DNA of 64,000 bases, taken from the NCBI GenBank assembly GCA_026390035.1, contig JAPLGT010000035.1, positions 3,330 to 67,329 of the forward strand, in the 5' to 3' direction. The position numbers were made by a program, and so were the translations under genes. This DNA is from Chloroflexota bacterium. GTDB taxonomy: Bacteria > Chloroflexota > Anaerolineae > Anaerolineales > Villigracilaceae. This document shows positions 37,435-56,394 of this stretch, in pieces. Numbering within the stretch: position 1 is the stretch's first letter; each line of letters starts with the position of its first letter. Below the pieces are notes generated by a model. The model had not been told where the DNA came from. It made no database searches and saw only the letters and a list, made by a program, of their open reading frames with translations.

Positions 37435-38337
37435 TTAGATTCCCTGATAACAAACGAAGGTAAACCCATTTATACTCTGCAACCTGGGGTGTCGCCTGTG
37501 AACCCGTCTGCCGGGCCCGGGAAGTTGGTTAAAATATTTGGTCTCTCCATCAGCCGAACCAAAGAAATAGTCCGGCTGTCCTGCCTGAGCGCGGGCATGT
37601 AGTTGGTCTGCTAGCTGCCAGCCATTCAGGGCCTTGCCCTGATAAGTCCACTTGAATGGTTTGGCCATTGTCAGGTTGTAATATTCGATGAAAGCCAGAA
37701 CTTTGCGTTTTAGATCATCCACTGATGTGAAATTGCCTCGTTTCAGAGCTTTTCGAACCAGGATACTGAACCAAATATCGATTTGGTTCATCCAAGAAGC
37801 ATGCTTGGGCGTGTAATGAAAAACGATGCGATGTGTTGGATCACTCAAAAAGGCGGCGCGCGAAGCTTTCGATTTCAAAATACCGGATTTACCTTTCTCG
37901 CCTAAATCAGAAGTAATGTCTGACTCTTCCGCAACATATCGAACCAGCGATTCTGACATGTGCGTGTTGAGATTATCGCAAACAAAGCCATATTTCACGA
38001 CCAATGGGTCAGAAACAACGCGCTCTTTGATATGCGCCAGGAAATCTTTTTCGTTGCGAGTCTTCTTTGCTGTGCAGGCAACCAGTTTTCCAAGCACAAT
38101 ATCAAAGTTGCAGGTAAAAGACAAAGTACCATGCCGTTTGTATTCGAACTCAATACGCCTTACCTTGCCAGGCTGCATGGGTAGATCCGGATGTTTACGC
38201 TCTAATGCTTGAACACCTGTCATTTCATCGATACTTTCCAGCTGTTCTCCCTGTTTGGCCAGTTCAGGAGCTTGTTTGCAAGCCTCGTTAATAGCAGCAA
38301 CCTTGTCGTCAAAACCTGCTTCACACGCTGGTGTCAA
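37435..38337 (-). CDS. IS630-family transposase, DDE catalytic part (orfB)
   Basis: [24 protein letters not shown] and [16 protein letters not shown] form the DD(E/D) triad region. The frame is +1 relative to orfA. Confidence 0.8.
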
Positions 38338-38365
38338 CCAATAACGGCTCAGATGCGGCTTGATA

Positions 38366-38830
38366 TCACCGTCTTTTTAAAAGCTTTGCTGCATGTCTGG
38401 CTGAAATATTATCAACAATCTTGCGTTTCATTACTTCATCGGCGATTTCTCGTGCTGTCCACTCGGTAATGGGTATTTCGGAGTCTTCCGGTAATTCACA
38501 AGCCAGCGATTCAATCCTACAACGCTGGTCAGTAGTAATGCGGCTAGGCGCGCCAGGACGAGGCTCATCTTGTAAGCGATCTTCAAGGCTCAAATCGTCG
38601 TAAGAAATAGTTTGTGCTTTTGCAAAACGATTTCTCCAGCGCTGAATAGTGTTGATGCTTATCTCGTACTCTATAGCGATCGCATGATTGGTTTTTCCTT
38701 GTCCTGCCGCCAAGACGATTCGCGCTCGTAAAGCGATTTGTTGGCCGACATTGTGCCGACGAACTAACTGCTCAAGTCCGGTTTGCTCGTTTTCCTGCAA
38801 GTTCACATCTGTTGCTTTTGGAAATGACAT
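38366..38830 (-). CDS. IS630-family transposase, N-terminal HTH part (orfA)
   Basis: [35 protein letters not shown] is an HTH, followed by a second HTH-like region. The ORF ends in ...AKLLKRR*, inside a T4A5 run. Confidence 0.8.
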
Positions 38831-39002: not shown

Positions 39003-40142
39003 CTAATTTCCGGGGCCTGGCAGATCCGAATTATGTTGCTTGATTAGAAGTTGTAGCTCAGGGTGATTCTTTAAACTCTGTGGTGCAACACAGCTGCTTT
39101 TGGCACATTGGATTCCCCAGGTATAAGCAATATCAAAAACAGGATTCGGCACCAAGGATTTCCAAAGATCGAGCATATCCTGGAATTCCGTCGTTGTGGG
39201 CGTCCGGTAGTAAATACTCTTGCCATCCAACCTACCTTCTTGTCCAAACGCCTGGTAAACAGGAATGATGGCAGAACCAGGAATTCCATTTGCGATAGCC
39301 GACTGCACTCGGTCTGAAATCTTACTGATATCGCATGGTACAGGCAGTCCGGCACTATCGAAATGACAGGGGTATGGATCAAGGCCAATCAGATCAACAT
39401 GGGTGTTTTCCGGTCTTAATGCACGGTATTCACAGCCCTCGCCTTCTGGACACATATTGCTCCCGTCCAGAATCGTGATATATGTTTTCTGCCCTGGCGC
39501 ATTTGTATGGACATAGTCAGACCGGGCCCTGATGGCGCTGGCAGCATCTGGGCACACGGACGGGTGGGGTTCATCCGACAGATTGTAGCCAAAAACTTTG
39601 GGGTTGTTGGACAGGATATCTACTATAGCCTTAAACTCGGCATCACTAAAACCTGGAGCGGGACAGCTTTGACCTTTGGCGGCATTACCCAAATTTCCCA
39701 ACCAAACCAGCGCCTGGGTTCCTTCTGGCAAGGCATTAACGAGCGCAAGTGTACTGGCTGGATTGGTTTTACTGCCAGTGATGTCGAATATGTTAAAACC
39801 TAAAGCGATTAGATCAGCTATGCCTGCCTGGGTGTTGAATGCATAATGGTACGTAACAGTGGGTGCTATCAATGCTGTCGGCGCCACTGCAGTTTCACTG
39901 TTCGTTATTATAGGAGAAGGGGTTGCCTGGGGCTCTACAGCGGTTACATTTTCAATTATCGTCCGGGAAGGGGTTGCCTGGGGAACAGCCGTGGTCTGAA
40001 ACACAATTGGTGTTGGATGGGCGGTTGCTATTGTCGTTAGAACACCACTGCCCGTGTTACCTTCACTTCCACAGGCGACGAGAAAAAATGAGATTAAAAG
40101 ACAAATAATGTACGCTTTTGAAGTTGCGGTCATGAACATCAT
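39003..40142 (-). CDS. Secreted lipoprotein with TIM-barrel glycoside-hydrolase-like domain (tentative)
   Basis: Signal peptide plus lipobox: CLLISFFLVACGS. A Pro/Thr linker carries repeated PQATPS. The C-terminal domain has GYNLSDEP (reminiscent of the clan GH-A NEP acid/base motif) and LIGLDPYP. The functional call is weak. Confidence 0.45.
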   Translation of the reverse strand: MMFMTATSKAYIICLLISFFLVACGSEGNTGSGVLTTIATAHPTPIVFQTTAVPQATPSRTIIENVTAVEPQATPSPIITNSETAVAPTALIAPTVTYHYAFNTQAGIADLIALGFNIFDITGSKTNPASTLALVNALPEGTQALVWLGNLGNAAKGQSCPAPGFSDAEFKAIVDILSNNPKVFGYNLSDEPHPSVCPDAASAIRARSDYVHTNAPGQKTYITILDGSNMCPEGEGCEYRALRPENTHVDLIGLDPYPCHFDSAGLPVPCDISKISDRVQSAIANGIPGSAIIPVYQAFGQEGRLDGKSIYYRTPTTTEFQDMLDLWKSLVPNPVFDIAYTWGIQCAKSSCVAPQSLKNHPELQLLIKQHNSDLPGPGN

Positions 40143-40294: not shown

Positions 40295-43200
40295 TTATGG
40301 AACGCTGAAAGTCCGCCAAGTTCTTACTGAGCCAAAACCGCTGCTGCCTACCGAATTAACCGCTGCCACACTGAATGAGTAACTACCCGACGGCAGGACC
40401 ACAGATGTTTTATAACTGCAGATACCACCAACACATGTTGCGGCTATGGATTGGTTGTTCACCGGATATGTGCGCGTGCGAGTATTGTAAACGGACAACT
40501 GATAGGATATGGCCCCGGTGGATTGATTCCAGGTGAATGTCGGGGAGGCTGCCGTGCTACCATTCGGCGAAATCGTAATCGGGATCGTTGGGATGGCGAT
40601 AGCCGTAGTGAAACTCACATCGCTACCATACGATGTGCCGGAAGAGTTTGTAGCGTAGGCACGAACATGGTAAAGCGTTCCAGATGTTAGGCCTGTGATG
40701 GAGCTTGTGAAAGCGCCGGTTACATTTCTCGTGCCTTGCGCTGTCTTGGTCGTCAACGCAATGGTGGGATTGGCTGCCGTACCCCAGACGACACCATACT
40801 GAGTCGGATTAGGCACACCGAGAGACGTGATGTTGCCATTGCCGGTAGCTGTGGTAGTTCCGATGGCAGTGACTGCCTGCGTGGTGACAGTTGGAGGCCC
40901 AGGAACGGTAAAGGTAACATCTGCACCGTAGGCTGTGCCAGCCGTGTTAGTGGCGTAGGCGCGAACATGGTAGATGGTACCGGGTATCAGACCTGTGATG
41001 GAGCTTGTGAAAGCGCCGGTTACATTTCTCGTGCCTTGCGCTGTCTTGGTCGCCAACGCAATGGTGGGATTGGCTGCCGTACCCCAGACAACACCATACT
41101 GAGTCGGAGTAGGCACACCGAGAGACGTGATGTTTCCATTGCCGGTAGTGGTAAATGTAGTGTCGGCACCGTAGGATGTGCCAGCCGTGTTAGTAGCGTA
41201 GGCGCGAACGTGGTAGGTGGTGTTGGGGGCAAGACCTGTGATGGAACTTGTGAAAGCGCCGGTTACATTTCTCGTGCCTTGCGCTGTCTTGGTCGCCAAC
41301 GCAATCGTGGGATTAACTGCCGTATCCCAGGCGACACCGTACTGGGTTGGGTTGGGTACACCAAGAGATGTAATGTTACCGTTCCCAGTGGCTGTGGTAG
41401 TCCCGATAGTAGTAACTGCTTGAGTTGTAACGGTTGGAACTGTAGAAGACGCCAGAATCGTATACGTTACAGTGATCTGGATGTAATCCACTGAGGCTGT
41501 TCTGCTGTTGGAACTCCTTGCCGATAAAGCCACACCGAAGTTGCTGGCATTGATATCGGCAGGGGTCCATGTGGTTCCCCAAAGATCAGATATTGAACCG
41601 TAAGTTGCGGCGACTGGCGAGCCGGTCGGCCATTCTGTTGAGGTTGCTGCCTTATTGGTGCCAGTCAGTGTACCGCCTTTGATCAAACTGACAATATTAT
41701 CCTGCACATCCTTACCTGCGCCGGTAGCGCTTTCAAAACGTCCAATGGCAACAGCGATCCCATTGATCGTTGCATTAGCAGGAATGGCAAAGCCATAATT
41801 GGTGCCTTGCAGATAACGCGAGATGGCGTTACTAAGCGTGGCAGTTGTATAACTGGTATCGTCAGCAATGATGTTGCCCGGGTTCGTCCATGAGACTGTT
41901 CCGATACCTATTACGTTAGTGCCTGTTCCTGTGTTCGTGGCTGAAGTGGTAGTAGTAACTGCGTAGTAGGTAGTAAAAGTGACATCTTCACCATAGGCTG
42001 TGCCGAGTGCGTTGGTAGCATAGGCTCGGACGTGATAGAGCGTACCCGAGGTTAGACCTGTGATAGTGCTTGTAAACGCACCAGTGGCTGCAGGAATGCC
42101 CTGTGCAGTCTTGGTAGTCAACGCGATGGTGGGATTGGCTGCGGTATCCCAGACGACACCGTACTGTGTGGGGGTGGGAGAACCAAGAGAAGTAATATTA
42201 CCGTTCCCCATGGCAGTGGTAGACCCGATAGCTGTGACCGCCTGAGTGGTAATTGTCGGTAATGATGCGGTAGCTCCCAGTTGAAATTCATAGGCGCCCC
42301 GATCATCATAGGTGCGTGTGCCAACACCGCTATTCACCGTGAGCAGATCATCCACACGCGCATTACCATCTAGATCCAGGGTTGGTTCGTTGGAAACATT
42401 CGAGTTGGCACTGTCAATAGCCGGAGAGCCATAGTTCAGATGATAGTCACCGACGTTCACCGCGACATTATAAGGGGCGGTCGCCGGACGTTGAGCGACC
42501 GGGGCTGGCGCGATGAAAAGCGGGGTCATTTGCAGGCCATGCACTTCCTGACCGGGCACGGCCGCCTGGAAGGCCACCAGCGTCACGTAGTTGATACCAT
42601 TCCATTGGATCTCGGCTGTACCACTGTTCAAATAAAAGATATTGTAATCAAAGGTATCACCGACCAGGGAAGTCGCATCAAAGCGGAGGTTACTTGGCTG
42701 TCCGGAGGAGGTTCCGCCGCCAACCAGTTGGAGTAACCCGTTGTCGACCAGGATATTGTTCATCACCGTTGCGCCACCTGAACCGGGTGCAGCGGTGCCT
42801 TCAAAATTGATCCCGGCAGTCACATTACCATGGACGGTGTTGCCAATGACTGTGTTGTTCGGCGAATTCAAGTTATCCACGCCGTGGTCGCCATTCCCGT
42901 AAAGGAGATTGCCGATGATGAAATTACCGCTGGCACCGGTGTAGTTGGTCACCCCGGAGTCTTCATTGCCATAGCTGGTATTATGCAGGATCGTATTGTT
43001 GGTGGTTCCACTCCCATCGAGCCGGATGCCGCTGGCATCCCGGATATATCCCTGGGCGTTGCCGAACGTGAGGTTGTTGCTGACCAGATTACCGTTGGAG
43101 CCATTCGTAAGGTAAATACCATGCGAGCTGTTGTGATCGGTGGTGTTCCCACTGATCGTGGAATTGGTGGTGCTATTGATGTAGATACCGCCATGGGTGG

Positions 43201-46200
43201 AGCCAGAGACCGGTTGGCCAGAGTAACTGACGTGGTTGTTTGAGATCGTGATGTTGTTTGAACCGGAAACGTAAATGCCATAATCAGCAGTGCCGGTGAC
43301 AGTGAAACCATTGACCACGATGTAGCTCTTGCCCGACAGCTGGAAGGCATTGCCGCCGCTGGCCAAGCCATTACCTGAGACCGTAACACCCGTCGCGGCA
43401 GTATAGGTGATAGGCAGGCCAGCCGAGCCCGAATTCGTCCCGCTCACCGTCTCGGCGTAGGTGCCGGCTAATGCATACACAGTGTCACCGGCAGCGACTA
43501 AACTAGCGGCTTTGCCAATCGTGCAGAACGGCAGGGCGGTTGTCGCACCAGAACCCGTATCGCTGCAAGCCAGATTTGTGTTATCCACGTAATAGGTGGC
43601 GTGGGGAGTTGTGAAGGTGAGATCCGCGCCATAAGATGGGCCTGCAGAATTCCAGGCATAAGCCCGAACATGGTAAAGTGTATTGGAAGTCAAGCTCGTG
43701 ATATTGCTCGTGAAGGCCCCCGTAGCGCTGACCGGTCCATCCATGGTTATGTTATCTTGAATGGTAGGATTGGCCAGGGTACTCCAGACAACACCATGCT
43801 GAATTGGGGTGAGTACGCCGAGAGAAGTGACCGTGCCATTTCCGGTGACAAATGATTGCGTAATATTGGTAACCGCCTCCGTGGTCACGCTAGGAAGTTG
43901 CGCTCCAGCTAGTGGTTGAAACTCATACGCGCCACGATCATCATAGGTGCGCGTGCCAACACCGCTATCCACTGTGAACGGATTATTAACCCGGGCATTG
44001 CCCTCGATATCCAGGGTTGGCTGGTTGGAAGCATTAGAGTTGGCGCTGTCAATGGCTGGTGAGCCGGACATCAGATGGTAGTCGCCCACATTTACAGTGA
44101 CGTTGAAGGGTGCTACCGGCGGGTGCTGAGCGATCGGGGCAGGCGCAACGAAGAACGGGTTGGCCTGTAATCCGTGTGTTTCTTGTCCAACCACCGCATC
44201 TTGGAAGGCTGCTAAAGTCGGATAGTTGATGCCACTCCATTGAATCTCGGTGCCAGAACCGGTTAGATAATAAATGTTGTAATCGAGGGCGTTACCGATC
44301 GCAGAAGCAACATCAAATCGCAGGTTACCTGGCATTCCACTGGGTGGTGTTCCGCCGCCAACCTGTTGTAGTAGCCCGTTGTCAACCATGATATTGTTGG
44401 CAACCGTTGCGCCGCCTGACCCAGGGGCTACTGCGCCTTCAAAATTGATCCCGGTGGTCACATTACCTTGTACAGTGTTGCCGATGACCATGTTATTTGG
44501 CGCAGCATTGAAATCAAGGCCATGATCGCCGTTCCCGTAGGCGAGATTACCGATGAAGGAATTCCCACTGGAACCATAGTAACTGGTCACCCCAGAGTCT
44601 TCATTAGCATAGGTAATATTATGCAGGATCGTATTGTTGTTACTCGCGTCGAGGCGAATTCCGCTTGCATCCCGTAGAAATTGTCGGGCATTGGCGAACG
44701 TGATATTGTTACTGACCAGGTTATTGTTGGAACCATTGGTAAGTAGAATACCATGATAGCTGTTGTGATCAGATGTATTCCCGCTGATCGTGGAACCGGT
44801 GGTGCTGTTGATGTAGATGCCCATCCGAACGGTTAATGTATCCACCGGGCTGCCAGAGTAGCTGACCTGGTTGTTTGAGATGGTGATGTTGGTCGAGCCC
44901 CAAACATATATCCCATAATCCGCAGTGCCGGTAACCGTGAAACCGTCTACCACGATGTAGCTTTTGCTAGTGATACGGAAGGCGCCGCCCGGGCTGGTTG
45001 AACCGTTGCCGCTCACCGTGACACCCGGCACAGCAGAATAGGTGATGGGCGAATCAACGGAACCGGATTTTGGCACGTTCACCGTTTCGGCGTAAGTGCC
45101 AGCCAACACCCGCACGGTGTCACCGGCAATGGCTATACTGGCAGCTTTGCCAATCGTACAGAACGGCAGGACGATTGTTGTACCAGAACTTGTATCGCTG
45201 CATGCTGGATTCGTTTTATCCACGTAGTAGATGGCGTGAGGAGTTGTGAAAGTAACATCCTCGCCATAGGCCACGCCTGCAGAATTCCAGGCATATGCCC
45301 GAACGTGGAAAAGCGTACCAGGGATAAGACCCGTGATATTGCTCGTGAAGCTACCTATTGCACTGACCGGTCCTTCCGCGGTTTTGTTATCCTGAACGGT
45401 AGGATTAGCCAGGGTACTCCAGACAACACCATGCTGAGTTGGGTTGAGTACACCGAGAGTAGTGACAGTGCCATGCCCGGTAGCTGATGATTGTGTAATA
45501 TTGGTAACAGCTTGCGTAGTCACGCTGGAAAGTTGCGCTCCAGCCACGGGTTGATATTCATACGAGCCGCGATCATCATAGCTGCGAGTGCCAGCACCCG
45601 TGTCTGTAGTGAATGGTTCATCCACCCGGGCATTGCCCGCGAGATCCAGGGCCGGTTCGTTGGATGCGTTGGAGTTGGCGCTGTCAATGGCTGGAGAGCC
45701 ATTGTTCAGATGGTAGTCTCCGCTATTTACCGCCACATTATAAGGGGCGCCAGACGGTCTTTGAGCGACCGAGGCAGGTGTGATAAAGAACGGGTTCGCC
45801 TGTACTCCGTGGGTTTCCACTCCAACCACCGCGCTCTGGAAGGCTGCCAGCGTCGTATAGCTTGTGGTGCCCCAGATGATCTGGACGGACCCGCTATTCA
45901 GATAGTAGAGATTGTAGTCGATGCTATCGTTGGCTAACGAAAAGGCATCAAAGCGCAGGTTGCCTGCATTTCCACTCGCCGTTCCACCGCCAACCTGTTG
46001 GAGTAACCCATTGTCGACCAGGACATTGTTGGCGACAATCGCGCCGCCTGAACCAGGGGCTGCGGTCCCTTCAAAATTGATACCTGATGTGACGTTGCCC
46101 TGCACGGTGTTACCGACGATTATATTGTTCGGCGCGGTGCTGAAATCAATGCCGTGGTCACCGTTTCCATAACTCAGGTTGCCAACTACAAAATTGTTAT

Positions 46201-48946
46201 TGGCGCCAGCCAGGAATTGCAAGCCAGTGTCTTCATTAGCGTACGTGATGTTGTGGATGATGTTGTTATTGGCACTGGTTGCGCCATTCACCTGGATGCC
46301 GTTCGCATTGCGCTGCCAACCTTCAGCATTGGCGAACGCGATGTTGTTGCTAACCAGATTATTGTTGGAAGCACTTGTAAGTAGAATACCATGCGAGCTG
46401 TTGTGATCGGTGGTGTTCCCGCTGATGGTGGAACTGGTGGTGCTGTTGATGTAGATGCCTGCACGCGTAGAGCCAGATACAGGGCTGCCGGAATTGCTAA
46501 CCTGGTTGTTCGAGATCGTGATGTTGTTCGAGCCGGAAACGTAAATGCCATAGTCTGCGGTGCCGGTGATTGTGAAACCGTTGACCACAATGTAACTTTT
46601 GGAGGTCAGGCGGAAGGCATTACCAGTAGCCGAGCCGTTACCGGTCACGCTGACGTCTGGCGCTGCCGAATAAGTGATGGGCAGGCCGGCCTGGCCGGAA
46701 TTCACAACATTCACGGTCTCGGCGTAGATGCCTGCCAGCACCTGCACGGTGTTACCGGCGACGGCCAGACCGGCGGCTTTGCCGAGCGTACAGAACGGTG
46801 CGGCAACAGTTAAGCCCGCTCCTGAATCCGAACAGGCAGCGTTCGTCTTGTCGACGTAATAAGTGATGTTAACTGGCAGAGCACTGGTGAAAGTGACATC
46901 AGTGCCGTAAGAAGTGTTCACAGAATTCGTAGCATACGCCCTGACATGATAGAGCGTTCCGGCGGTAAGCCCAGTGATATTGCTGGTGAAGGCGCCTGTG
47001 GCGCTGACCGGTCCATCTGTGGTTTTGTTATCTACCAGGGTGGGATTGGCCAGCGTACTCCAGACAAGACCGTGATCAGTTGGATTGGGTACGCCGAGAA
47101 CGGTGATATTGCCATTCCCGGTTGCTGAGGTTTGGGTAATATTTGTAACAGCTTGGGTGGTAACAGTAGGTGCGATAGGTGTCGAGAGAGTCGTGAAGGT
47201 GACATCCTGGCCATAAGCCGTACCTGCAGAATTTGTGGCATAAGCACGAACATGGTAGAGTGTTGCCGCAGCAAGACCTGCGATATTGCTGGTAAATGCA
47301 CCTGTGGCTGCAAGATCGCCCTGTGTAGTCTTGGTAGCTAACGCAATGGTAGGATTGGCTGCGGTGTCCCAGGCAACACCATACTGGGTCGGATTAGGTA
47401 CGCCGAGATCAGCAAGGTTTCCATTTCCTGTGGCTGCCGAATCTGTAATATTGGTAACTGCCTGGGTGGTCACGGTTGGTAATGTTGATCCAGCCACAGG
47501 TTGAAATTCATACGAGCCGCGATCATCATAGCTGCGAGTGCCAGCACCCGTGTCCGTAGTGACTGGATCATCCACCCGGGCATTGCCCTCTATATCCTGG
47601 GTTGGCTCGTTGGGCGCATCGGAGTTGGCGCTGTCAATGGCTGGAGAGCCATTGTTCAGATGGTAGTCTCCGCTATTTACCGCCACATTATAAGGGGCGC
47701 CAGACGGTCTTTGAGCGACCGGGGCCGGCGCTATGAAGAGTGGATTGGCTTGCAAACCGTGCACTTCCTGACCAGACACGGCTGCCTTGAATGCCGTCAG
47801 CGTTGTATAGCTTGTGCTGCCCCAGGTGATCTGGATGGACCCGCTATTCAGATAAAAGATGTTGTAGTCGATGCTGGTGTTTGCTAACGAAAAGGCATCA
47901 AAACGCAGATTGCCTGCATTACCACTTGCCGTTCCGCCGCCAACCTGCAGACGTAACCCGTTATCGACCATGATATTGTTGGCGACCGTTGCGCCGCCTG
48001 AACCAGGGGTTGCGATCCCTTCAAAATTGATCCCTGATGTGACGTTGCCCTGCACAGTATTACCAACGACTATGTTATTCGGCGCGGTGCTGAAATCAAT
48101 GCCGTGATCGCCGTTTCCATAACTCAGGTTACCAACCACATTATTTTTATTGGCGTTGTTAAGGAATTGTATGCCAGTGTCTTCATTGGCGTACGTGCTG
48201 TTTTGGATGATGTTGTTGTTGACACTGGCAGCGCCATTCACCTGGATACCGTTCGCATTGCGCTGCCACTGTTCAGCGTTAGCAAATGCGAGGTTGTTGC
48301 TGACCAGGTTATTGTTGGCACCATTGGTCAGCAGAATACCGTGCGAGCTGTTGTGATCGATGGTGTTCCCGCTGATCGTTGAACTGGTGGAGCTGTTGAT
48401 GTAGACGCCTGCACGCGTAGAGCCAGATACAGGGCTGCCGGAATTGCTGACATGGTTGTTCGAGATCGTGATGTTGTTCGAGCCGGAGACGTAAATACCA
48501 TAGTCTGCGGTGCCAGTGATCGTGAAACCGTTGACCACGATGTAGCTTTTGGAGGTCATGCGGAAGGCGCTGCCGCCGGTTGCCAAGCCGTTACCAGACA
48601 CGCTGACGCCTGGCGCGGCGGTATAAGTGATGGGTAGGCCGGCCTGGCCGGAATTCACACCGTTGACGGTCTCGGCGTAGGTGCCTGCCAGTATCTGCAC
48701 AGTATCGCCTGCCGCTGCTAGACCGGCGGCTTTGCCAATCGTGCAGAACGGTGCATCAGGTGATATGCCAGTTCCTGAATCAGAACATGGTCCTGATGTG
48801 TTCAAGTTATCGACATAGAAGATCGAACCTGCCGCATTGGCCGACTTAAATCCCACCAGGGAAAACAGTAAGACCAAAATTAAAATAGAACTCTTAATCC
48901 GTAAATAATAATTCAGGACAATTTTAGAATTAATTTTGATCTGCAT
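40295..48946 (-). CDS. Giant secreted repeat protein: 4x right-handed parallel beta-helix (CASH/NosD-like) modules interleaved with Fn3-like domains
   Basis: 8.7-kb uninterrupted ORF. The ATG at 48946 follows AGGGAG; the ORF track starts at TTG 48982. The signal peptide ends ...LVGFKSANA. Four modules each begin (F/Y)YVD(K/N)(T/L)N..CSD...PFCT(I/L)GKAA and run through NNITISNN.VS.SG-type PbH1 turns to GDYHL..GSPAIDSAN...GNARV. Fn3-like units carry the YHVRAYATN..G..YG.DVTFTT signature. Confidence 0.9.
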   Translation of the reverse strand: MQIKINSKIVLNYYLRIKSSILILVLLFSLVGFKSANAAGSIFYVDNLNTSGPCSDSGTGISPDAPFCTIGKAAGLAAAGDTVQILAGTYAETVNGVNSGQAGLPITYTAAPGVSVSGNGLATGGSAFRMTSKSYIVVNGFTITGTADYGIYVSGSNNITISNNHVSNSGSPVSGSTRAGVYINSSTSSTISGNTIDHNSSHGILLTNGANNNLVSNNLAFANAEQWQRNANGIQVNGAASVNNNIIQNSTYANEDTGIQFLNNANKNNVVGNLSYGNGDHGIDFSTAPNNIVVGNTVQGNVTSGINFEGIATPGSGGATVANNIMVDNGLRLQVGGGTASGNAGNLRFDAFSLANTSIDYNIFYLNSGSIQITWGSTSYTTLTAFKAAVSGQEVHGLQANPLFIAPAPVAQRPSGAPYNVAVNSGDYHLNNGSPAIDSANSDAPNEPTQDIEGNARVDDPVTTDTGAGTRSYDDRGSYEFQPVAGSTLPTVTTQAVTNITDSAATGNGNLADLGVPNPTQYGVAWDTAANPTIALATKTTQGDLAATGAFTSNIAGLAAATLYHVRAYATNSAGTAYGQDVTFTTLSTPIAPTVTTQAVTNITQTSATGNGNITVLGVPNPTDHGLVWSTLANPTLVDNKTTDGPVSATGAFTSNITGLTAGTLYHVRAYATNSVNTSYGTDVTFTSALPVNITYYVDKTNAACSDSGAGLTVAAPFCTLGKAAGLAVAGNTVQVLAGIYAETVNVVNSGQAGLPITYSAAPDVSVTGNGSATGNAFRLTSKSYIVVNGFTITGTADYGIYVSGSNNITISNNQVSNSGSPVSGSTRAGIYINSTTSSTISGNTTDHNSSHGILLTSASNNNLVSNNIAFANAEGWQRNANGIQVNGATSANNNIIHNITYANEDTGLQFLAGANNNFVVGNLSYGNGDHGIDFSTAPNNIIVGNTVQGNVTSGINFEGTAAPGSGGAIVANNVLVDNGLLQQVGGGTASGNAGNLRFDAFSLANDSIDYNLYYLNSGSVQIIWGTTSYTTLAAFQSAVVGVETHGVQANPFFITPASVAQRPSGAPYNVAVNSGDYHLNNGSPAIDSANSNASNEPALDLAGNARVDEPFTTDTGAGTRSYDDRGSYEYQPVAGAQLSSVTTQAVTNITQSSATGHGTVTTLGVLNPTQHGVVWSTLANPTVQDNKTAEGPVSAIGSFTSNITGLIPGTLFHVRAYAWNSAGVAYGEDVTFTTPHAIYYVDKTNPACSDTSSGTTIVLPFCTIGKAASIAIAGDTVRVLAGTYAETVNVPKSGSVDSPITYSAVPGVTVSGNGSTSPGGAFRITSKSYIVVDGFTVTGTADYGIYVWGSTNITISNNQVSYSGSPVDTLTVRMGIYINSTTGSTISGNTSDHNSYHGILLTNGSNNNLVSNNITFANARQFLRDASGIRLDASNNNTILHNITYANEDSGVTSYYGSSGNSFIGNLAYGNGDHGLDFNAAPNNMVIGNTVQGNVTTGINFEGAVAPGSGGATVANNIMVDNGLLQQVGGGTPPSGMPGNLRFDVASAIGNALDYNIYYLTGSGTEIQWSGINYPTLAAFQDAVVGQETHGLQANPFFVAPAPIAQHPPVAPFNVTVNVGDYHLMSGSPAIDSANSNASNQPTLDIEGNARVNNPFTVDSGVGTRTYDDRGAYEFQPLAGAQLPSVTTEAVTNITQSFVTGNGTVTSLGVLTPIQHGVVWSTLANPTIQDNITMDGPVSATGAFTSNITSLTSNTLYHVRAYAWNSAGPSYGADLTFTTPHATYYVDNTNLACSDTGSGATTALPFCTIGKAASLVAAGDTVYALAGTYAETVSGTNSGSAGLPITYTAATGVTVSGNGLASGGNAFQLSGKSYIVVNGFTVTGTADYGIYVSGSNNITISNNHVSYSGQPVSGSTHGGIYINSTTNSTISGNTTDHNSSHGIYLTNGSNGNLVSNNLTFGNAQGYIRDASGIRLDGSGTTNNTILHNTSYGNEDSGVTNYTGASGNFIIGNLLYGNGDHGVDNLNSPNNTVIGNTVHGNVTAGINFEGTAAPGSGGATVMNNILVDNGLLQLVGGGTSSGQPSNLRFDATSLVGDTFDYNIFYLNSGTAEIQWNGINYVTLVAFQAAVPGQEVHGLQMTPLFIAPAPVAQRPATAPYNVAVNVGDYHLNYGSPAIDSANSNVSNEPTLDLDGNARVDDLLTVNSGVGTRTYDDRGAYEFQLGATASLPTITTQAVTAIGSTTAMGNGNITSLGSPTPTQYGVVWDTAANPTIALTTKTAQGIPAATGAFTSTITGLTSGTLYHVRAYATNALGTAYGEDVTFTTYYAVTTTTSATNTGTGTNVIGIGTVSWTNPGNIIADDTSYTTATLSNAISRYLQGTNYGFAIPANATINGIAVAIGRFESATGAGKDVQDNIVSLIKGGTLTGTNKAATSTEWPTGSPVAATYGSISDLWGTTWTPADINASNFGVALSARSSNSRTASVDYIQITVTYTILASSTVPTVTTQAVTTIGTTTATGNGNITSLGVPNPTQYGVAWDTAVNPTIALATKTAQGTRNVTGAFTSSITGLAPNTTYHVRAYATNTAGTSYGADTTFTTTGNGNITSLGVPTPTQYGVVWGTAANPTIALATKTAQGTRNVTGAFTSSITGLIPGTIYHVRAYATNTAGTAYGADVTFTVPGPPTVTTQAVTAIGTTTATGNGNITSLGVPNPTQYGVVWGTAANPTIALTTKTAQGTRNVTGAFTSSITGLTSGTLYHVRAYATNSSGTSYGSDVSFTTAIAIPTIPITISPNGSTAASPTFTWNQSTGAISYQLSVYNTRTRTYPVNNQSIAATCVGGICSYKTSVVLPSGSYSFSVAAVNSVGSSGFGSVRTWRTFSVP
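40605..41450 (-). repeat. Near-identical tandem DNA repeats (300, 243 and ~300 bp) encoding C-terminal Fn3-like units
   Basis: cctgtgatggagcttgtgaaagcgccggttacatttctcgtgccttgcgctgtcttggtcg recurs at 40692 and 40992, and with small changes at 41235. The middle unit is 57 nt shorter. Confidence 0.85.
41960..48830 (-). repeat. Four long direct repeats (approx. 1.64, 1.63, 1.63 and 1.96 kb), each a beta-helix module plus Fn3-like unit(s)
   Basis: The landmark string tcatccac(c/a)cg(g/c)gcatt(g/a)cc...ccagggttgg recurs at ~42348, 43984, 45618 and 47568. The YYVD module starts lie at ~43597, 45228, 46865 and 48830. By eye, long stretches are roughly 85-90 percent identical (e.g. 46380-46620 vs 48340-48580). 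Confidence 0.85.
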
Positions 48947-49179
48947 AATGTTGCTCCCTGGCTTTCGATATAGAAACGACAAAGATACTTCTGATAATAT
49001 TGGCTACGGTCAACCAAGATAAAATAGTAGAGTTAATAATGTTGCCTATCATGACTGCAAAGCAAAACATGCTCGAAGAAATTAGATCAATATTCGTTTC
49101 AAAATTTCAGAATAGATATTGTTTGAGAAAAAATTCAATCAACATAGAATTTGTATCTAAAGATCTCATTTCAAACGAT

Positions 49180-49217
49180 TAAAAATAGCGAAACCGAATT
49201 GTGGCCGGTTTCGCTAT
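49180..49217 (-). terminator. Rho-independent terminator on the minus strand
   Basis: ATAGCGAAACCG (49185-49196) pairs with CGGTTTCGCTAT (49206-49217). On the minus strand the stem is followed by TTTTTAAT. Confidence 0.7.
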
Positions 49218-49713
49218 TCGCTATCCAGAGAAAACGCCTCGTTCAGAAATTCAAGAAGGCGTAGCGACCAAAATATCCCTGGGTCATTGCTTCCAATTAT
49301 TACCAATATTCAGTTGTCACTGATTGCCGCTAAAGCAATCGCTCAAACCACTTTATTTTTAATGTAGCATACACTTCACTCAAAAACAAGTACAAATTAA
49401 ATTTTTCCATTTATATATTAAAAATCTAACCTGCTTTCAATGGTGCTGTACAAATCCTATTTTGTATATCACAGGTTTGTAAGGATCCGCTTTCTGTATA
49501 AAATAAAACGAATCCTTACAAAATGACATCTTTTTCACGCAGCTTGTTGTTTTTAAGAAAAACGCACTTCAATTGTTTAGTCATTGCGGAAATCCAATGG
49601 ATCAGTCCAGGAGCCAATATCGGTGTGGTGGTGGAAAACGGTAAAGTTCTTGGCAAAATAAACCGCCAGCCTGATCTTGCTTGAAAACAATTTCCGTACC
49701 ATGGCTGCTGCCA

Positions 49714-51528
49714 TTACCGAACAAAATTTAGACGAAAGGACTCGAAATTCTTGGAATGCCAGCGCTGATAACGAATACTCCGGTAATAGTAGACTAAATC
49801 GTGCGGAATTCGATAGAGCACAACGCCCATTATATTTGCGCCGGCCAGATTAAGTTGTTCCATCGAATTAATCGCAGAAGCCTTGTGAGTGCTATTGGAG
49901 TGAATAGCTAACAAGACCCCATCCACTTTGGATGCCAGCACCCACGAAGCTGCATCACTGCTCGAAGGAGCATCGATGATAATCAGATCTGCCTGCGGTT
50001 TCAATATTTCAAAGATCGGACCGATTTTGTCGGGTCTAAGCAAGCCATTCGTTACCGGAGACGCATTTCCACCAGTAATCACAGTCATCCCATTCAGGTC
50101 TTCGATTTTTTGGCCGGCAGCCAAAATCTTCGAGCTATCCGCTAAAATATCGCTAAAGCCATTTTCATTGGCCAATCCAAAATAGCTATGGACGCCAGGA
50201 TTCCGCAAATCAGCATCCAGGAGAACCACCCTGCTGCCCGATTGAGCAAAGCTGACGGCAAGATCAGCTGCCATATTTGTCTTACCTTTACCAGGCTCGG
50301 CAAGGTTAAGTAATAGCAAGGTTTTCAGTGGAGAGTGGGTAGCCGCCAATTCCAGATTTGTACGCAGCGCATAAAGCGCATCAGAAGGCTGGGAATATAA
50401 CTGCCCTTCAACGGGTAGCCCTTTTTCAGTTTTTGAGGCAGGCTTCATATTTGTAATAAAGCCAAGAACGGGGGTGCCCAGCGTCTTTTGAACATCCTGG
50501 GGGGTTTTCAAAGTATCATCCAGATATTCAATGATAAAAATCATACCAAGTGCGAAAATCAAGCCCACGATGCCTCCCAAAATAATATATATGGTTGGCT
50601 GGGGGCGAACAGGTTGTGCCACTGGTATCGCCTTTTCAATTTGATCGATAGTAGGTGTATTCCGAAAATGCGCAAGTTGAACTACTTGTAAGTTTTCTAA
50701 TAGAGAAAGATATGTTTTCTGAAAGCGATCCAGCGTTGATTGCAATTGTTGCAGGCGAAAATCGCTTCCCTGGTCATTGGAATTCAAAGCAGGTTTTCCG
50801 ACAAGATCCAGGCTAAGGCGAATTTGTTGATATTGAGAAAGCTGAGACTGTAATTGCGCCAGGTGGGCCTGTTTTTCAGCAAGCAGGCTGCTTTGTTCAG
50901 CGCTCATTCTAATCAAAGAAGCAAGTGGTCCGATCTCTGAAGTAAGTTTTACAATCCCGGCCTGCGCGATTGTAATCTGATCATTTATTTGCTTCAATTG
51001 GCTTTGAAGTTTCTCATCAGAAATCTGTATATACTGGGTTTGAAGAGCGGTAATTTGGCCTTCAAGCTGGGTAATCTTATTTTTAATATTTTCTTCGGTC
51101 GCAACATAGCCACTCGCCTGCACATTTTGATCCATCAGGACTTCGACCAACATATTTGCGATTGCCGCGACTCGTTGAGGGTCACTATCTTCCATCATTA
51201 CTTCAATCACATTTGTCGACCGCACTTGTTGGACCGAACCCAATTCTTTCAAATTAATCTCGTAGTTTAGCCGGCGTGAGGCTTCGTCGATCACACTGGA
51301 TGAGGTCAGCAATTGTACATACGCGTCGATAAGCTGCTGATTATTCATGGCAGCGAACTGCGAATTCTGGTCTAATATGTCTTTACTGATTAAAATTTTA
51401 GTGCTTGCCTGGTACGTTGGTTGTTGAAGCCGGCTGGCTAAGTAACCGCTGCCTATTCCCAAGAGCGCACATAAGACCAAAAGCCAAAACCAACGAAACA
51501 TGATCTGAAGATAATTTTTGAGTTCCAT
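49714..51528 (-). CDS. Polysaccharide co-polymerase (Wzz domain) fused to BY-kinase (CpsD/Wzc-like tyrosine autokinase)
   Basis: N-terminal TM helix plus Wzz-like region with long coiled-coil segments, then a second TM helix. The C-terminus has a P-loop (EPGKGKT), Walker A'/B (VLLDADLRNP, LIIIDAPS) and a Tyr-rich tail (DLVYYYRSIRY). Confidence 0.85.
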   Translation of the reverse strand: MELKNYLQIMFRWFWLLVLCALLGIGSGYLASRLQQPTYQASTKILISKDILDQNSQFAAMNNQQLIDAYVQLLTSSSVIDEASRRLNYEINLKELGSVQQVRSTNVIEVMMEDSDPQRVAAIANMLVEVLMDQNVQASGYVATEENIKNKITQLEGQITALQTQYIQISDEKLQSQLKQINDQITIAQAGIVKLTSEIGPLASLIRMSAEQSSLLAEKQAHLAQLQSQLSQYQQIRLSLDLVGKPALNSNDQGSDFRLQQLQSTLDRFQKTYLSLLENLQVVQLAHFRNTPTIDQIEKAIPVAQPVRPQPTIYIILGGIVGLIFALGMIFIIEYLDDTLKTPQDVQKTLGTPVLGFITNMKPASKTEKGLPVEGQLYSQPSDALYALRTNLELAATHSPLKTLLLLNLAEPGKGKTNMAADLAVSFAQSGSRVVLLDADLRNPGVHSYFGLANENGFSDILADSSKILAAGQKIEDLNGMTVITGGNASPVTNGLLRPDKIGPIFEILKPQADLIIIDAPSSSDAASWVLASKVDGVLLAIHSNSTHKASAINSMEQLNLAGANIMGVVLYRIPHDLVYYYRSIRYQRWHSKNFESFRLNFVR

Positions 51529-54918: not shown

Positions 54919-56394
54919 TTATAAATTCCTCCAAATATTTTTTTTAACTTCGAGTACAGTCCTATCAAGAGGTTGATCAGTGTTGATTTTATTGACTGGG
55001 GCATTCCTATATTCCAGATTGGAAGCCAGCGAGTGTCGAAAGCGTACATAATCTTCAGGCTCTTCTTTGCCACGATTCTTATTTCGAAGCAGCGCAACTT
55101 CAACGGGAACATGTAAAGAGATGACCATGTCCGGTGCGGGTATCTCCTGGTATAAACGTTTCTCAGTACGAGCAAGCCAGGCTTGAATTGGATAGCGTTT
55201 TGGGTCGATCACAAATTGTTGCAGTTGCGGCCCATCTGGAGCCCCTTTCGACATGGATGGATACCGATCACACAAGACAATATTTCCATTGGCAGCCCGG
55301 GCAAAAGCCCAACTCAGCAAGACCCGACGGTCGTAGGCCAGAAAAACTGACCGAATCGCAGAAATAAGCGGGTAGACTTGATGAGATTTTTGATTTTTCT
55401 CAGCTGAGGTCTGGATGGTATTGATCTTGCTCGGTCGATAGGTTGGCAGAGTGTTGCGCAATAATGGTAAAAACATATTGGGCAGCATGGTCAACAGAGT
55501 CGATTTAGGCTTGCCTGAATGGATTTGCTCGATAACAAAATGTTCGCCCAGCCAGTGCCTGGTCGCGGTGAGAAGTGTGGATTTCCCGGTTGCCTCTGGG
55601 CCGACAAAGGCGATGACAGCCCCGCCAGACTGAAGAATCATGCCTCTTTTGGAATGCGTGAGCCGGCCATACGCCATCAGAGAGAATTTTTGTATTCCGC
55701 TTATCCAGGCTTGAATCCGGGAATTTCTGGCATAAATACTGAGTTGGGAGCGCAGTTGAAGACCCAGACTGATGCGGCGATGCAGTGGGGATGGTTTCTT
55801 TAGAGCATCAATACATTCAGAAAACAATCTGGTATCGACGCAAGGCAACCAGGTTTCCACCAGCTTAAGCGTTTCGTCCGTTGGGTTAGCTTCCATGAGC
55901 CATTCGATTTCTCGACTGACCGCTTCCCAATCTCTGGAAAGCATGAGCAGTTCGACGACTGAAGTATGTTTCAACATCATCCGAATGGTGAAAACCACTA
56001 ATTCAGCACTTTTGACAGGAACCGGGATCGAAGCTTCCTGACGAAGGTTTTGTAATAACATCTCTTCGATCGGCAAGTGCAGGTTTTTTGACAAACTTTC
56101 ACCGGTGATGACCCGGTAATAAGCGTGCACATGAACAAAAATCCCGGTTCCATCATCCATGGCAAAATAATGCTCGACAGCCGGGAAAGGCGCGTCGCCC
56201 TGAATACCGGCAGGACGAAACTTCAACTCAGCCATTACCAATCTAAATGAATCACAATCCATTCGATGAATGAGCAAATCGACATCCGTATCACCGGTCA
56301 GAACCTGGGAAAGCGCTGAATTGCTCTTCCAGTGACAGTAACTGATTTCATTTGCGCTGAGTTTTTCAATGAGTTGTTGAAGTTTTGTTAACAT
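54919..56394 (-). CDS. Fusion of a pol-beta-type nucleotidyltransferase-like domain with a P-loop (dNK/TMPK-fold) kinase-like domain; unknown function
   Basis: N-terminus: CHWKSNSALSQVLTGDTDVDLLI, a GDxDxD-like NTase signature. C-terminus: VIAFVGPEATGKSTL (Walker A), LCDRYP, and a LID-like RNKNRGKEEPED. Confidence 0.5.
   Translation of the reverse strand: MLTKLQQLIEKLSANEISYCHWKSNSALSQVLTGDTDVDLLIHRMDCDSFRLVMAELKFRPAGIQGDAPFPAVEHYFAMDDGTGIFVHVHAYYRVITGESLSKNLHLPIEEMLLQNLRQEASIPVPVKSAELVVFTIRMMLKHTSVVELLMLSRDWEAVSREIEWLMEANPTDETLKLVETWLPCVDTRLFSECIDALKKPSPLHRRISLGLQLRSQLSIYARNSRIQAWISGIQKFSLMAYGRLTHSKRGMILQSGGAVIAFVGPEATGKSTLLTATRHWLGEHFVIEQIHSGKPKSTLLTMLPNMFLPLLRNTLPTYRPSKINTIQTSAEKNQKSHQVYPLISAIRSVFLAYDRRVLLSWAFARAANGNIVLCDRYPSMSKGAPDGPQLQQFVIDPKRYPIQAWLARTEKRLYQEIPAPDMVISLHVPVEVALLRNKNRGKEEPEDYVRFRHSLASNLEYRNAPVNKINTDQPLDRTVLEVKKNIWRNL

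What the first reader, a model, noticed from the sequence alone, without database searches (positions are those of the whole stretch)
40295..48946. ~2,880-aa secreted protein made of four tandem beta-helix 'catalytic-looking' modules inside an EPS locus
Each module is ~440-480 aa. It starts YYVD.TN..CSD...PFCT(I/L)GKAA..AGDTV..LAGTYAE and runs through many PbH1-type turns (NNITISNN.VS.SG, GN.T.HNSSHGI, GNGDHGIDF). It ends with GDYHL..GSPAIDSAN...(I/L).GNARV.

That architecture is seen in CASH/NosD-like carbohydrate-binding or carbohydrate-modifying beta-helices, such as lyases, C5-epimerases and depolymerases. Four such modules in one chain is striking. They are separated by Fn3-like units, with an unrelated ~165-aa beta-rich insert (approx. 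41470-41960) and a distinct C-terminal domain (40295-40600).

The gene lies directly downstream of the Wzz/BY-kinase gene and upstream of a hydrolase-like lipoprotein. The modules have diverged unevenly: modules 1 and 2 are closest, and modules 3 and 4 carry different loop sequences. This could reflect different specificities. The protein could also simply be a structural sheath, S-layer or adhesin component.
Basis: partly seen in the sequence, partly recalled or inferred. Interest (0 to 1): 0.62.

Follow-up and report, generated by a model that had tools for sequence, protein, structure and literature searches.

The report
Four-module secreted beta-helix EPS protein
An uncultured Anaerolineae bacterium encodes, at the end of an exopolysaccharide gene cluster, a 290-kDa secreted protein with four diverged copies of an enzyme-like beta-helix module; it most likely cuts or remodels the cell's own slime polymer, but that activity is untested.

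Summary
Window 40295-48946 (-) encodes a 2,883-aa protein: signal peptide, four ~440-aa right-handed beta-helix modules (67-83% identical), nine Fn3-like units, an unassigned 172-aa domain and no C-terminal anchor.

The array is not an assembly artefact. The longest internal exact repeat is 101 nt. Two orthologues (84% and 76% identical) and a fourth species-level genome (locus L006) have the same four modules. Every module is under purifying selection (dN/dS 0.13-0.25).

The module defines a family of at least 391 clusters spanning several phyla. An acidic/His constellation (N-E-D, G-D-H-G-I-D, N-x-E) is 93-100% conserved. It lies on the T3/PB1 edge of three adjacent coils, where beta-helix lyases, hydrolases and epimerases have their active sites. 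Relatives fuse the module to CBM96.

32-35 of 77 family loci lie within 10 kb of Wzx/Wzy/Wzz genes, against about 6% background. A conserved neighbour is a lipoprotein with a GH-A-like TIM barrel from an undescribed family.

Best reading (0.5): a multi-catalytic, EPS-acting secreted enzyme, analogous to two-A-module AlgE1. Main rival (0.28): a non-catalytic multivalent matrix scaffold. It is not an AlgG/AlgE epimerase, because the DPHD motif is absent. Four modules is the maximum I found.

The parts
40295..48946 (-). Coding sequence of the 2,883-aa secreted four-module beta-helix protein (stop codon at 40295-40297)
   Evidence: ORF list, translation, ATG and RBS
48954..48959 (-). Shine-Dalgarno-like AGGGAG, 8 nt upstream of the ATG
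   Evidence: Read directly from the sequence
48830..48946 (-). Sec-type signal peptide (MQIKINSK...LVGFKSANA|AG)
   Evidence: Translation. It is the only hydrophobic segment and is present in both orthologues.
47492..48820 (-). Beta-helix module 1 (N-cap, 10 coils, choice-of-anchor-Q C-cap); a recent copy of module 2
   Evidence: AF2 pLDDT 96; tree
46871..47482 (-). Fn3-like units F1 and F2
45542..46861 (-). Beta-helix module 2
45230..45535 (-). Fn3-like unit F3
43907..45229 (-). Beta-helix module 3 (positional orthologues 81-90% identical)
43595..43900 (-). Fn3-like unit F4
42272..43594 (-). Beta-helix module 4 (positional orthologues 83-91% identical)
41957..42265 (-). Fn3-like unit F5
41441..41956 (-). 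INS: 172-aa unassigned beta-rich domain that recurs in giant single-module relatives
   Evidence: No Pfam or PDB match and not CBM96; found in 22 relatives
40592..41440 (-). Fn3-like units F6, F7 (lacking 20 aa) and F8
40298..40591 (-). Divergent C-terminal Fn3-like domain; no membrane anchor or sorting signal
   Evidence: Pfam fn3 E=0.0027; hydropathy
49176..49219 (-). Intrinsic terminator (15-bp stem plus U-run) between the Wzz/BY-kinase gene and the giant gene
   Evidence: Fold -22.7 kcal/mol, z -4.65, 0 of 200 shuffles as stable
49714..51528 (-). Wzz/BY-kinase (chain-length determinant fused to a tyrosine autokinase), last gene of the upstream EPS operon
   Evidence: Pfam Wzz, GNVR and ParA-like; NCBIfam eps_fam
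39003..40142 (-). Conserved partner: lipoprotein with a GH-A-like (beta/alpha)8 barrel from an undescribed family
   Evidence: Lipobox LVAC; AF2 model; Foldseek hits to GH2, GH10, GH5 and GH158 barrels; CBM fusions in relatives; co-occurrence

Best explanation
The gene encodes a Sec-secreted, unanchored, ~290-kDa acidic protein. It strings four paralogous, individually conserved beta-helix modules along Fn3-like spacers. Each module is most likely a carbohydrate-active catalytic unit. Its active centre would be the near-invariant acidic/His cluster at the T3/PB1 edge of coils 5-8: E213-D214, D238-H239, D242, N265 and E267 in module numbering. The substrate would be the heteropolysaccharide made by the adjacent Wzx/Wzy/Wzz locus.

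The protein would cut or remodel that polymer outside the cell, controlling chain length, release or matrix remodelling. It probably works together with the neighbouring membrane-tethered TIM-barrel glycosidase-like lipoprotein. Several modules on one chain would act on the same polymer, cooperatively or with different sub-site preferences, as the two A-modules of AlgE1 do.

Shown: the architecture, secretion signal, fold, conserved residue cluster, purifying selection, locus association and CBM fusions in relatives.

Inferred: catalysis, the substrate, the reaction type (hydrolase or lyase more likely than epimerase) and cooperation between modules.
For: 1. Fold. The AF2 model has pLDDT 96. 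The best PDB matches are all carbohydrate-active beta-helix enzymes: GH136, GH120, PL9 Pel9A (TM 0.57/0.63), AlgE4, PL6, chondroitinase B, AlgG, RbmB and tailspikes. Phage depolymerases match in BFVD.
2. Sequence-level homology. The family profile matches the N-cap of GH120 XylC (4e-16) and PL9 BT4170 (1e-6), and the coils of AlgG (4e-13).
3. Conserved site. In 129 full-length modules from clusters at <=50% identity (37-74% identical to BH1), E213, D214, D238, H239 and D242 are 98-100% conserved, and N265 and E267 are 93% conserved. They sit in T3 loops and PB1 strands of consecutive coils. All four modules keep them.
4. Selection. Every module has dN/dS 0.13-0.25 against two orthologues. Modules 3 and 4 are ancient lineages conserved by position.
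5. Fusions. Single-module relatives 60-66% identical to BH1 carry CBM96, an alginate-binding CBM family (PMC9971899). These proteins nest among the four module lineages.
6. Context. The gene follows the Wzz/BY-kinase gene of the same EPS locus in three genomes. Relatives sit inside or beside such loci. 35 of 77 family loci have a core EPS marker within 10 kb, and 26 of 77 have two or more. Random 21-kb windows of the own genome give 6.1% and 0.4%.
7. Partner. The GH-A-like TIM-barrel lipoprotein co-occurs across phyla and is itself fused to CBM96 or ricin domains in relatives.
8. Precedent. AlgE1 has two catalytic beta-helix A-modules that work collaboratively on one chain (PMC12269086). WceF is an EPS-locus beta-helix glycanase (PMC7949094).
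Against: - No member of this family has been assayed, and I found no paper on it.
- Fold matches are generic: TM 0.4-0.6 and 12-19% identity.
- A conserved acidic/His cluster could equally be a Ca2+-dependent sugar-binding site.
- Coordinates of the model were not available, so the residue cluster is inferred from helix register, not measured.
- The locus shows no uronic-acid gene, so lyase or epimerase chemistry has no specific support.
- The neighbouring TIM-barrel protein could already supply the glycanase function of the locus.
- A terminator separates the gene from the EPS operon.
- Giant size, Fn3 arrays, and cadherin-like and VCBS domains in relatives are typical of adhesins.
- The context statistics use related genomes, which are not independent, and a background from one genome only.
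Confidence: 0.5

Rival explanations
1. Non-catalytic multivalent matrix scaffold or adhesin. Each beta-helix module is a lectin-like EPS-binding unit, with the acidic/His cluster acting as a Ca2+/sugar-binding site. Four modules on Fn3 spacers would cross-link polysaccharide chains or tie them to the filament surface, as CdrA does with Psl or RbmC/Bap1 with VPS (comparison from general knowledge).
For: - The protein is ~290 kDa and acidic, rich in T/G/A/N/S, with Fn3 spacers and no anchor.
- Module number increased independently in several lineages (P0008, P0022, P0009, P0049, P0081), which fits selection for avidity.
- Relatives combine the module with cadherin-like, Big_9, FG-GAP/VCBS and sorting-signal domains.
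- The C-cap is a 'choice-of-anchor' domain, typical of surface proteins.
- EPS-locus linkage fits a matrix partner as well as an enzyme.
- The locus already has a separate glycosidase-like protein.
Against: - Near-absolute conservation of five charged residues over 37-74% identity is tighter than is usual for lectin sites.
- Binding modules are rarely given an extra CBM96.
- All close structural neighbours are enzymes. No beta-helix adhesin appears among the top 50 PDB matches.
Confidence: 0.28
2. Nutritional depolymerase. The protein is a secreted multi-catalytic enzyme, but it degrades foreign polysaccharides (other organisms' EPS or plant/algal glycans) for food. Its position next to the EPS locus would be incidental or due to mobility.
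For: - The gene has its own transcription unit behind a terminator.
- An IS630-type transposase lies 1.3 kb downstream.
- It is the only copy in the genome.
- The pairing with a TIM-barrel glycosidase-like protein resembles degradative endo/exo pairs.
- CBM fusions are typical of degradative CAZymes.
Against: - Linkage to Wzx/Wzy/Wzz loci recurs in Chloroflexota and Actinomycetota at different positions within the loci. That is hard to explain by chance.
- No transporter or sugar-catabolic genes are attached to the pair.
Confidence: 0.12
3. Structural S-layer or sheath protein of the filament, with no specific relation to the polysaccharide.
For: - The protein is large, acidic, secreted and repetitive.
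- The organism belongs to filamentous Anaerolineae, judged from the names of its nearest relatives.
Against: - There is no S-layer or cell-wall-binding domain.
- Most family members are ~450-750-aa single modules, often with CBM96.
- The conserved charged cluster and the EPS-locus enrichment are unexplained by this reading.
Confidence: 0.07
4. Assembly artefact: the four-module array arises from mis-joined or duplicated repeats.
For: - The assembly is a fragmented MAG of 339 contigs.
- One Fn3 unit shows a 20-aa gap that a 98%-identical sequence from another assembly lacks.
- Reads could not be examined.
Against: - Modules are only 71-86% identical in DNA. The longest exact repeat is 101 nt, and the others are <=61 nt.
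- The same BH-F-F-BH-F-BH-F-BH order is found in P0002, in P0003 (on a 1.75-Mb contig) and in L006.
- The reading frame is intact with dN/dS <0.3 throughout.
Confidence: 0.02

Closest known systems
AlgE1/AlgE3 secreted mannuronan C5-epimerases of Azotobacter vinelandii (A- and R-modules)
   Same: These are secreted, elongated, modular proteins. More than one catalytic right-handed beta-helix module (~385 aa) is separated by beta-rich non-catalytic modules, and the A-modules act collaboratively on one exopolysaccharide chain (PMC12269086). AlgE4 and AlgE6 A-modules are among the fold matches.
   Different: - AlgE1/AlgE3 have two A-modules at most; this protein has four modules.
- The spacers here are Fn3-like, not RTX-type R-modules.
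- Secretion here is by a Sec signal peptide, not type I.
- The YG(F/I)DPH(D/E) motif is absent.
- There is no alginate locus.
AlgG periplasmic alginate C5-epimerase
   Same: It gives the best sequence-level match over the helix coils (profile E=4e-13). It is a PbH1/CASH-type helix encoded within an EPS operon.
   Different: - The DPHD catalytic motif aligns to GILLTN in this family.
- The NCBIfam AlgG score is 35 against a cutoff of 700.
- AlgG has a single module.
PL9 pectate/rhamnogalacturonan lyases (Pel9A 1ru4, BT4170 5olq)
   Same: - Highest TM-scores in the fold search (0.57/0.63).
- Homologous N-terminal cap (1e-6).
- Orthologues carry a precomputed Pfam Pel9A-like_beta_helix hit.
- A cluster of Asp residues on adjacent coils resembles, from memory only, the PL9 Ca2+ site.
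   Different: - There is no conserved Lys at a base position.
- A His is invariant here.
- The local Pfam scan gives no PF22842 hit for the window modules.
- There is no evidence for a uronic-acid substrate.
EPS-locus-encoded beta-helix glycanases: WceF/AmsF (stewartan/amylovoran) and RbmB (Vibrio VPS lyase)
   Same: These are beta-helix enzymes encoded in the biosynthetic cluster of the polymer they trim (PMC7949094). RbmB (9ozl) is among the fold matches.
   Different: - They are single-module, tailspike-like (trimeric in WceF) and proteobacterial.
- No sequence similarity was detected.
- Their activity has been shown experimentally; here it has not.
NosD (N2O reductase maturation)
   Same: It gives its name to the Pfam family that matches every module, and 7osf/7o0y appear among the matches.
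   Different: TIGR04247 scores 59.6 against a cutoff of 300. There are no nos genes nearby, and NosD is a single periplasmic module docked on an ABC transporter.

Membership tests
Right-handed parallel beta-helix, PbH1/CASH type (Pfam Beta_helix PF13229, NosD PF05048) | HMM match above the gathering threshold in each module | tested here: met
   Each module scores 70-81 bits against Beta_helix (cutoff 25.9) and 60-66 bits against NosD (cutoff 23.6). The whole protein gives 4e-79 and 2e-61.
Right-handed parallel beta-helix, PbH1/CASH type (Pfam Beta_helix PF13229, NosD PF05048) | Three-stranded coils with stacked Asn ladder | tested here: met
   The AF2 model (pLDDT 96) has 10 coils of PB1/PB2/PB3. 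Invariant Asn residues lie in every T2 turn: N176, N207, N231, N254 and N282.
choice-of-anchor Q domain (NCBIfam NF041518) | HMM match above the cutoff at the C-terminal cap of the helix | tested here: met
   79.5 bits against a cutoff of 25, in four stretches, one per module. The motif is GDYHL..GSPAIDSAN...GNARV.
Mannuronan C5-epimerase (AlgG / AlgE A-module) | Catalytic DPHD / YG(F/I)DPH(D/E) motif | tested here: not met
   In the profile-to-AlgG alignment, GIDPHD aligns with GI(r/L)LTN. No DPH motif occurs anywhere in the modules.
Mannuronan C5-epimerase (AlgG / AlgE A-module) | Equivalog-level HMM score and an alginate (alg) gene context | tested here: not met
   NF038177 scores 35.3 bits against a cutoff of 700. 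The neighbours form a Wzx/Wzy heteropolysaccharide locus with amino-sugar genes.
PL9 polysaccharide lyase (Pel9A-like) | Family HMM match over the catalytic coils | tested here: inconclusive
   PF22842 is listed in precomputed hits for the orthologues. It is absent from the local Pfam scan of the four window modules at E<=1. The profile matches PL9 only over the N-cap (5olq 1e-6, 1ru4 0.02).
PL9 polysaccharide lyase (Pel9A-like) | Ca2+-binding Asp cluster plus a catalytic Lys base | not testable with these tools
   An invariant E/D/D/D cluster exists, but no residue-level structural alignment or model coordinates were available. No invariant Lys was seen in the coils.
NosD (nitrous oxide reductase maturation) | Subfamily HMM above the cutoff and nos gene neighbourhood | tested here: not met
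   TIGR04247 scores 59.6 against a cutoff of 300. There are no nos genes in the window.
Fibronectin type III-like spacer | fn3-type HMM match per unit | tested here: inconclusive
   The whole protein scores 57.7 bits (cutoff 25), but no single stretch passes. A single unit gives E=4e-4, with parallel weak hits to other Fn3/Ig-like families.
EPS-locus beta-helix glycanase (WceF/AmsF, RbmB type) | Demonstrated depolymerase activity on the cognate EPS | not testable with these tools
   Only genomic linkage and a generic fold match to RbmB are available.

The most novel reading that the evidence does not exclude
The beta-helix module (signature N-E-D / G-D-H-G-I-D / N-x-E) and the neighbouring TIM-barrel lipoprotein would be founding members of two undescribed carbohydrate-active enzyme families. 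Together they would form a conserved extracellular processing pair for Wzx/Wzy exopolysaccharides in Chloroflexota, Actinomycetota and Acidobacteriota. In this Anaerolineae clade, four anciently diverged module lineages would have been fused into one chain. That chain would act as an assembly line on a heteropolysaccharide, each module recognising a different linkage or modification.
Probability: 0.25. Interest if true: 0.72.

Novelty: new variant of a known kind. Interest (0 to 1): 0.5.

Why it matters
- EPS processing. Extracellular processing of exopolysaccharides is well understood only in a few proteobacterial systems (alginate, VPS, stewartan). Filamentous Anaerolineae are abundant in activated sludge, digesters and soils, where their matrix matters for floc structure, yet their EPS enzymology is unknown.
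- A testable residue cluster. This locus offers a defined family with a sharply conserved residue cluster to test.
- Two candidate enzyme families. The modules and the TIM-barrel partner are both found fused to CBM96.
- Multi-module enzymes. This is the most extreme natural case found here of tandem beta-helix modules. If the modules are catalytic, it would extend the AlgE1 principle, in which several catalytic helices cooperate on one chain, from two modules to four, and to a different phylum and secretion route.
- If non-catalytic. It would then be a new type of multivalent matrix cross-linker.

Tried and rejected
- Assembly artefact: rejected on repeat divergence and independent assemblies.
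- AlgG/AlgE epimerase membership: rejected because the DPHD motif is not aligned and the score is far below the cutoff.
- NosD function: rejected (no nos genes).
- INS domain:
  - no Pfam hit at E<=5;
  - no PDB sequence hit;
  - hhalign against the CBM96 tails of relatives gave probability 0.4%.
- Sequence search of the partner lipoprotein against PDB, Pfam and NCBIfam gave nothing. Only the fold search was informative.
- The sigma-70 promoter scan was no better than shuffles, and the built-in terminator scan missed the hairpin because of its 7-nt loop/stem rule. The hairpin was confirmed by folding.
- Paralogues elsewhere in the genome: none.
- Test for module-specific specificity sites. 19 of 23 fixed m3-versus-m4 differences in the helix body lie in PB1/T1/T3 and none in PB2/T2. 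Loops vary more anyway, so this is only suggestive.
- Literature searches for this family, for DUF1565 and for choice-of-anchor Q gave no characterised member.
- Earlier-scan look-up by sequence found no look-alike.
Full report
**1. Observation**

A single ORF spans window 40295-48982 on the minus strand. The first in-frame ATG is at 48946 and is preceded by AGGGAG at the right distance.

The N-terminus is a Sec-type signal peptide ending ANA|AG. A hydropathy scan finds no other hydrophobic segment, so there is no membrane anchor or C-terminal sorting signal. The mature protein is about 290 kDa with pI 4.7, and is rich in Thr, Gly, Ala, Asn and Ser.

Motif and HMM analysis gives this architecture:
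- SP - BH1 - F - F - BH2 - F - BH3 - F - BH4 - F - INS - F - F(short) - F - CT.
- Each BH module is ~440 aa. It matches Pfam Beta_helix and NosD above threshold.
- Each module begins with a DUF1565-like cap carrying a conserved Cys pair.
- Each module ends in an NCBIfam choice-of-anchor Q domain (four stretches, 79.5 bits against a cutoff of 25).
- The spacer units give only weak Fn3-type matches.
- INS (172 aa) matches nothing in Pfam or the PDB.

**2. Is the array real?**

- The modules are 67-83% identical in protein and 71-86% in DNA.
- The longest exact repeat inside the gene is 101 nt; the rest are <=61 nt.
- The same order of four modules occurs in P0002 (84% identical, 2,868 aa), in P0003 (76%, 2,946 aa, on a 1.75-Mb contig) and in a fourth species-level genome, L006.
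- Codon alignments with the two orthologues give dN/dS of 0.13-0.25 for every module and 0.07-0.32 for the other domains.
- An assembly artefact is therefore very unlikely.
- The gene is single-copy in the 6.3-Mb assembly.

**3. History of the modules**

A maximum-likelihood tree of 99 modules and the identity matrix show the following:
- Modules 3 and 4 are old, separate lineages kept at the same position in all three orthologues (81-91% identical).
- The window's module 1 is a recent copy of module 2 (83% identical, and 81% to the orthologue's module 2). The orthologues keep a distinct module-1 type.
- Single-module proteins, several fused to CBM96, nest between these lineages.
- Other proteins (P0008, P0022, P0009, P0049, P0081) multiplied their module independently.

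Among 1.84 billion cluster representatives, 391 match at E<=1e-30. The only entries with three or more full modules are this protein's own cluster and P0022. Among 77 genome loci, 71 ORFs have one module, four have two, one has three and two have four. Four modules is thus the maximum I found, confined to a small Anaerolineae clade.

**4. Structure and conserved site**

AlphaFold2 with a 60-sequence alignment gives a right-handed three-stranded beta-helix of ten coils, with pLDDT 96 and pTM 0.94.

Foldseek against the PDB returns carbohydrate-active helices:
- GH136 lacto-N-biosidases and GH120 XylC;
- PL9 Pel9A (best TM, 0.57/0.63) and a PL9 rhamnogalacturonan lyase;
- AlgE4/AlgE6, PL6 lyases, chondroitinase B and AlgG;
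- RbmB, tailspikes and NosD.

All of these are at 12-19% identity. BFVD returns phage beta-helix proteins, including capsule depolymerases. These matches are generic.

At the sequence level, the family profile matches three things:
- the N-cap of XylC (4e-16);
- the N-cap of PL9 BT4170 (1e-6);
- the coils of AlgG (4e-13).

AlgG's catalytic GIDPHD aligns with GI-L-L-T-N, so the epimerase motif is absent.

The family does have its own signature. I took 129 full-length modules from representatives that are <=50% identical to one another (37-74% identical to BH1). In these, E213, D214, D238, H239 and D242 are 98-100% conserved, and N265 and E267 are 93% conserved.

By the DSSP register of the model, the residues fall as follows:
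- E213/D214 and D238/H239 occupy the same positions of the T3 turns of consecutive coils.
- D242, N265 and E267 face outward on the next PB1 strands.

This is the edge of the helix where pectate lyases, PL6 and PL9 lyases, GH28 enzymes and AlgE/AlgG carry their catalytic and Ca2+-binding residues (established knowledge). All four modules keep the whole set.

**5. Genomic context**

Upstream on the same strand lies a Wzx/Wzy-type EPS locus:
- a priming transferase with a degenerate GGDEF domain;
- an NDP-sugar dehydratase, a nucleotidyltransferase and a DegT aminotransferase;
- Wzx and Wzy;
- two P-loop kinase-like proteins and a GT4;
- an XrtA-type deacetylase and a formyltransferase;
- Wzz/BY-kinase.

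A 15-bp-stem terminator (-22.7 kcal/mol, z -4.65) lies between the Wzz gene and the giant gene. The gene probably has its own promoter in the AT-rich 230 bp upstream.

The same locus precedes the gene in both orthologues. Relatives with one to three modules lie inside or beside similar loci.

In 77 family loci from species-representative genomes:
- The genomes span Chloroflexota, Acidobacteriota, Actinomycetota and Dormibacterota.
- 35 loci have at least one of Wzx, Wzy, Wzz/BYK or the priming transferase within 10 kb.
- 26 loci have two or more of these markers.
- 32 remain if the transferase query is ignored (my count), because its GGDEF part gives false hits.
- Random 21.3-kb windows of the own genome give 6.1% and 0.4%.

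The loci are phylogenetically related and the background comes from one genome. The enrichment is therefore clear but not calibrated.

**6. The partner**

The downstream 379-aa protein has three parts:
- a lipobox (LVAC);
- a ~70-aa disordered linker;
- a domain that folds as a (beta/alpha)8 barrel.

The barrel matches GH2 beta-glucuronidase barrels and GH10, GH5, GH158 and GH18 enzymes. An invariant D-E-P sits at the end of strand 4, which is the acid/base position of clan GH-A. The protein has no Pfam or NCBIfam family. In relatives it is fused to CBM96, ricin, cohesin or TIG domains. It accompanies the beta-helix gene in six of the 77 loci, including Gaiellaceae and Dormibacterota. Two different putative catalytic folds, both found fused to CBM96, thus travel together with EPS loci.

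**7. Interpretation**

The best-supported reading (0.5) is a secreted multi-catalytic enzyme acting on the locus's own EPS. It is analogous in design to AlgE1, whose two beta-helix A-modules cooperate on one alginate chain (PMC12269086). It is analogous in genomic logic to WceF and RbmB (PMC7949094). Reaction type is open. Hydrolase or lyase is more likely than epimerase, and no uronic-acid gene supports a lyase.

The main rival (0.28) is a non-catalytic, multivalent EPS-binding scaffold. This rival fits the size, the Fn3 spacers, the repeated independent multiplication of modules and the adhesin-type domains of relatives. The presence of a separate glycosidase-like neighbour weakens the need for a second glycanase.

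Lesser rivals are:
- a nutritional depolymerase for foreign glycans (0.12);
- an S-layer or sheath protein (0.07);
- an artefact (0.02).

19 of 23 fixed differences between module lineages 3 and 4 in the helix body lie in PB1/T1/T3 and none in PB2/T2.

**8. Novelty**

The fold, the domain families and the idea of EPS-locus beta-helix enzymes are known. The following appear undescribed:
- the specific family signature;
- the cross-phylum linkage to Wzx/Wzy loci;
- the pairing with an unclassified TIM-barrel family;
- the four-module fusion.

I rate it a new variant of a known kind, with interest 0.5.

Noticed in passing
window 39003-40142 (-): Lipoprotein (lipobox LVAC, ~70-aa disordered linker) whose domain is predicted as a (beta/alpha)8 barrel. 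It matches GH2, GH10, GH5 and GH158 barrels and has an invariant D-E-P at the end of strand 4. It has no Pfam or NCBIfam family. Relatives are fused to CBM96, ricin, cohesin or TIG domains. It looks like a candidate new glycoside-hydrolase family.
   Followed up: partly
window 40892-41134 (-), Fn3 unit F7: This unit lacks 20 residues (LPMAPTVTTQAV...TTA). They are present in both orthologues and in a 98%-identical partial protein (P0004) from another assembly. The gap lies between 59-61-nt direct repeats. It is either a strain-specific recombination or a local assembly collapse, and reads could not be checked.
   Followed up: partly
window 47492-48820 vs 45542-46861 (-): Module 1 of this genome is a recent intragenic copy of module 2 (83% aa identity, with a 101-nt exact repeat). 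The orthologues keep a different, older module-1 type. This shows ongoing module replacement at the N-terminal end of the array.
   Followed up: yes
window 41441-41956 (-): The 172-aa INS domain has no Pfam, PDB or CBM96 relationship. It recurs, highly conserved, in 22 giant single-module relatives, and forms the C-terminus of orthologue P0003. Its function is unknown.
   Followed up: partly
window 49176-49219 (-): A strong intrinsic terminator (15-bp stem, U-run) follows the Wzz/BY-kinase gene. It is followed by an AT-rich 230-bp leader, so the giant gene is probably transcribed separately from the EPS operon.
   Followed up: yes
window 37435-38830 (-): IS630-type transposase (HTH plus DDE_3, in two ORFs) immediately downstream of the lipoprotein gene. 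The orthologous locus L002 has DegV and other genes there instead.
   Followed up: no
L005 10001-17778: In a related Chloroflexota MAG, the beta-helix region inside the EPS locus is split into five short ORFs (693, 298, 617, 242 and 728 aa, the last with CBM96). The gene is either pseudogenised or the long-read assembly has frameshifts.
   Followed up: no
window 54919-57170 (-) and loci L001, L002, L005, L009, L011, L060, L078: The two P-loop kinase-like proteins of the EPS operon (248 and 491 aa) are conserved as a pair in many related EPS loci that also carry the beta-helix gene.
   Followed up: no
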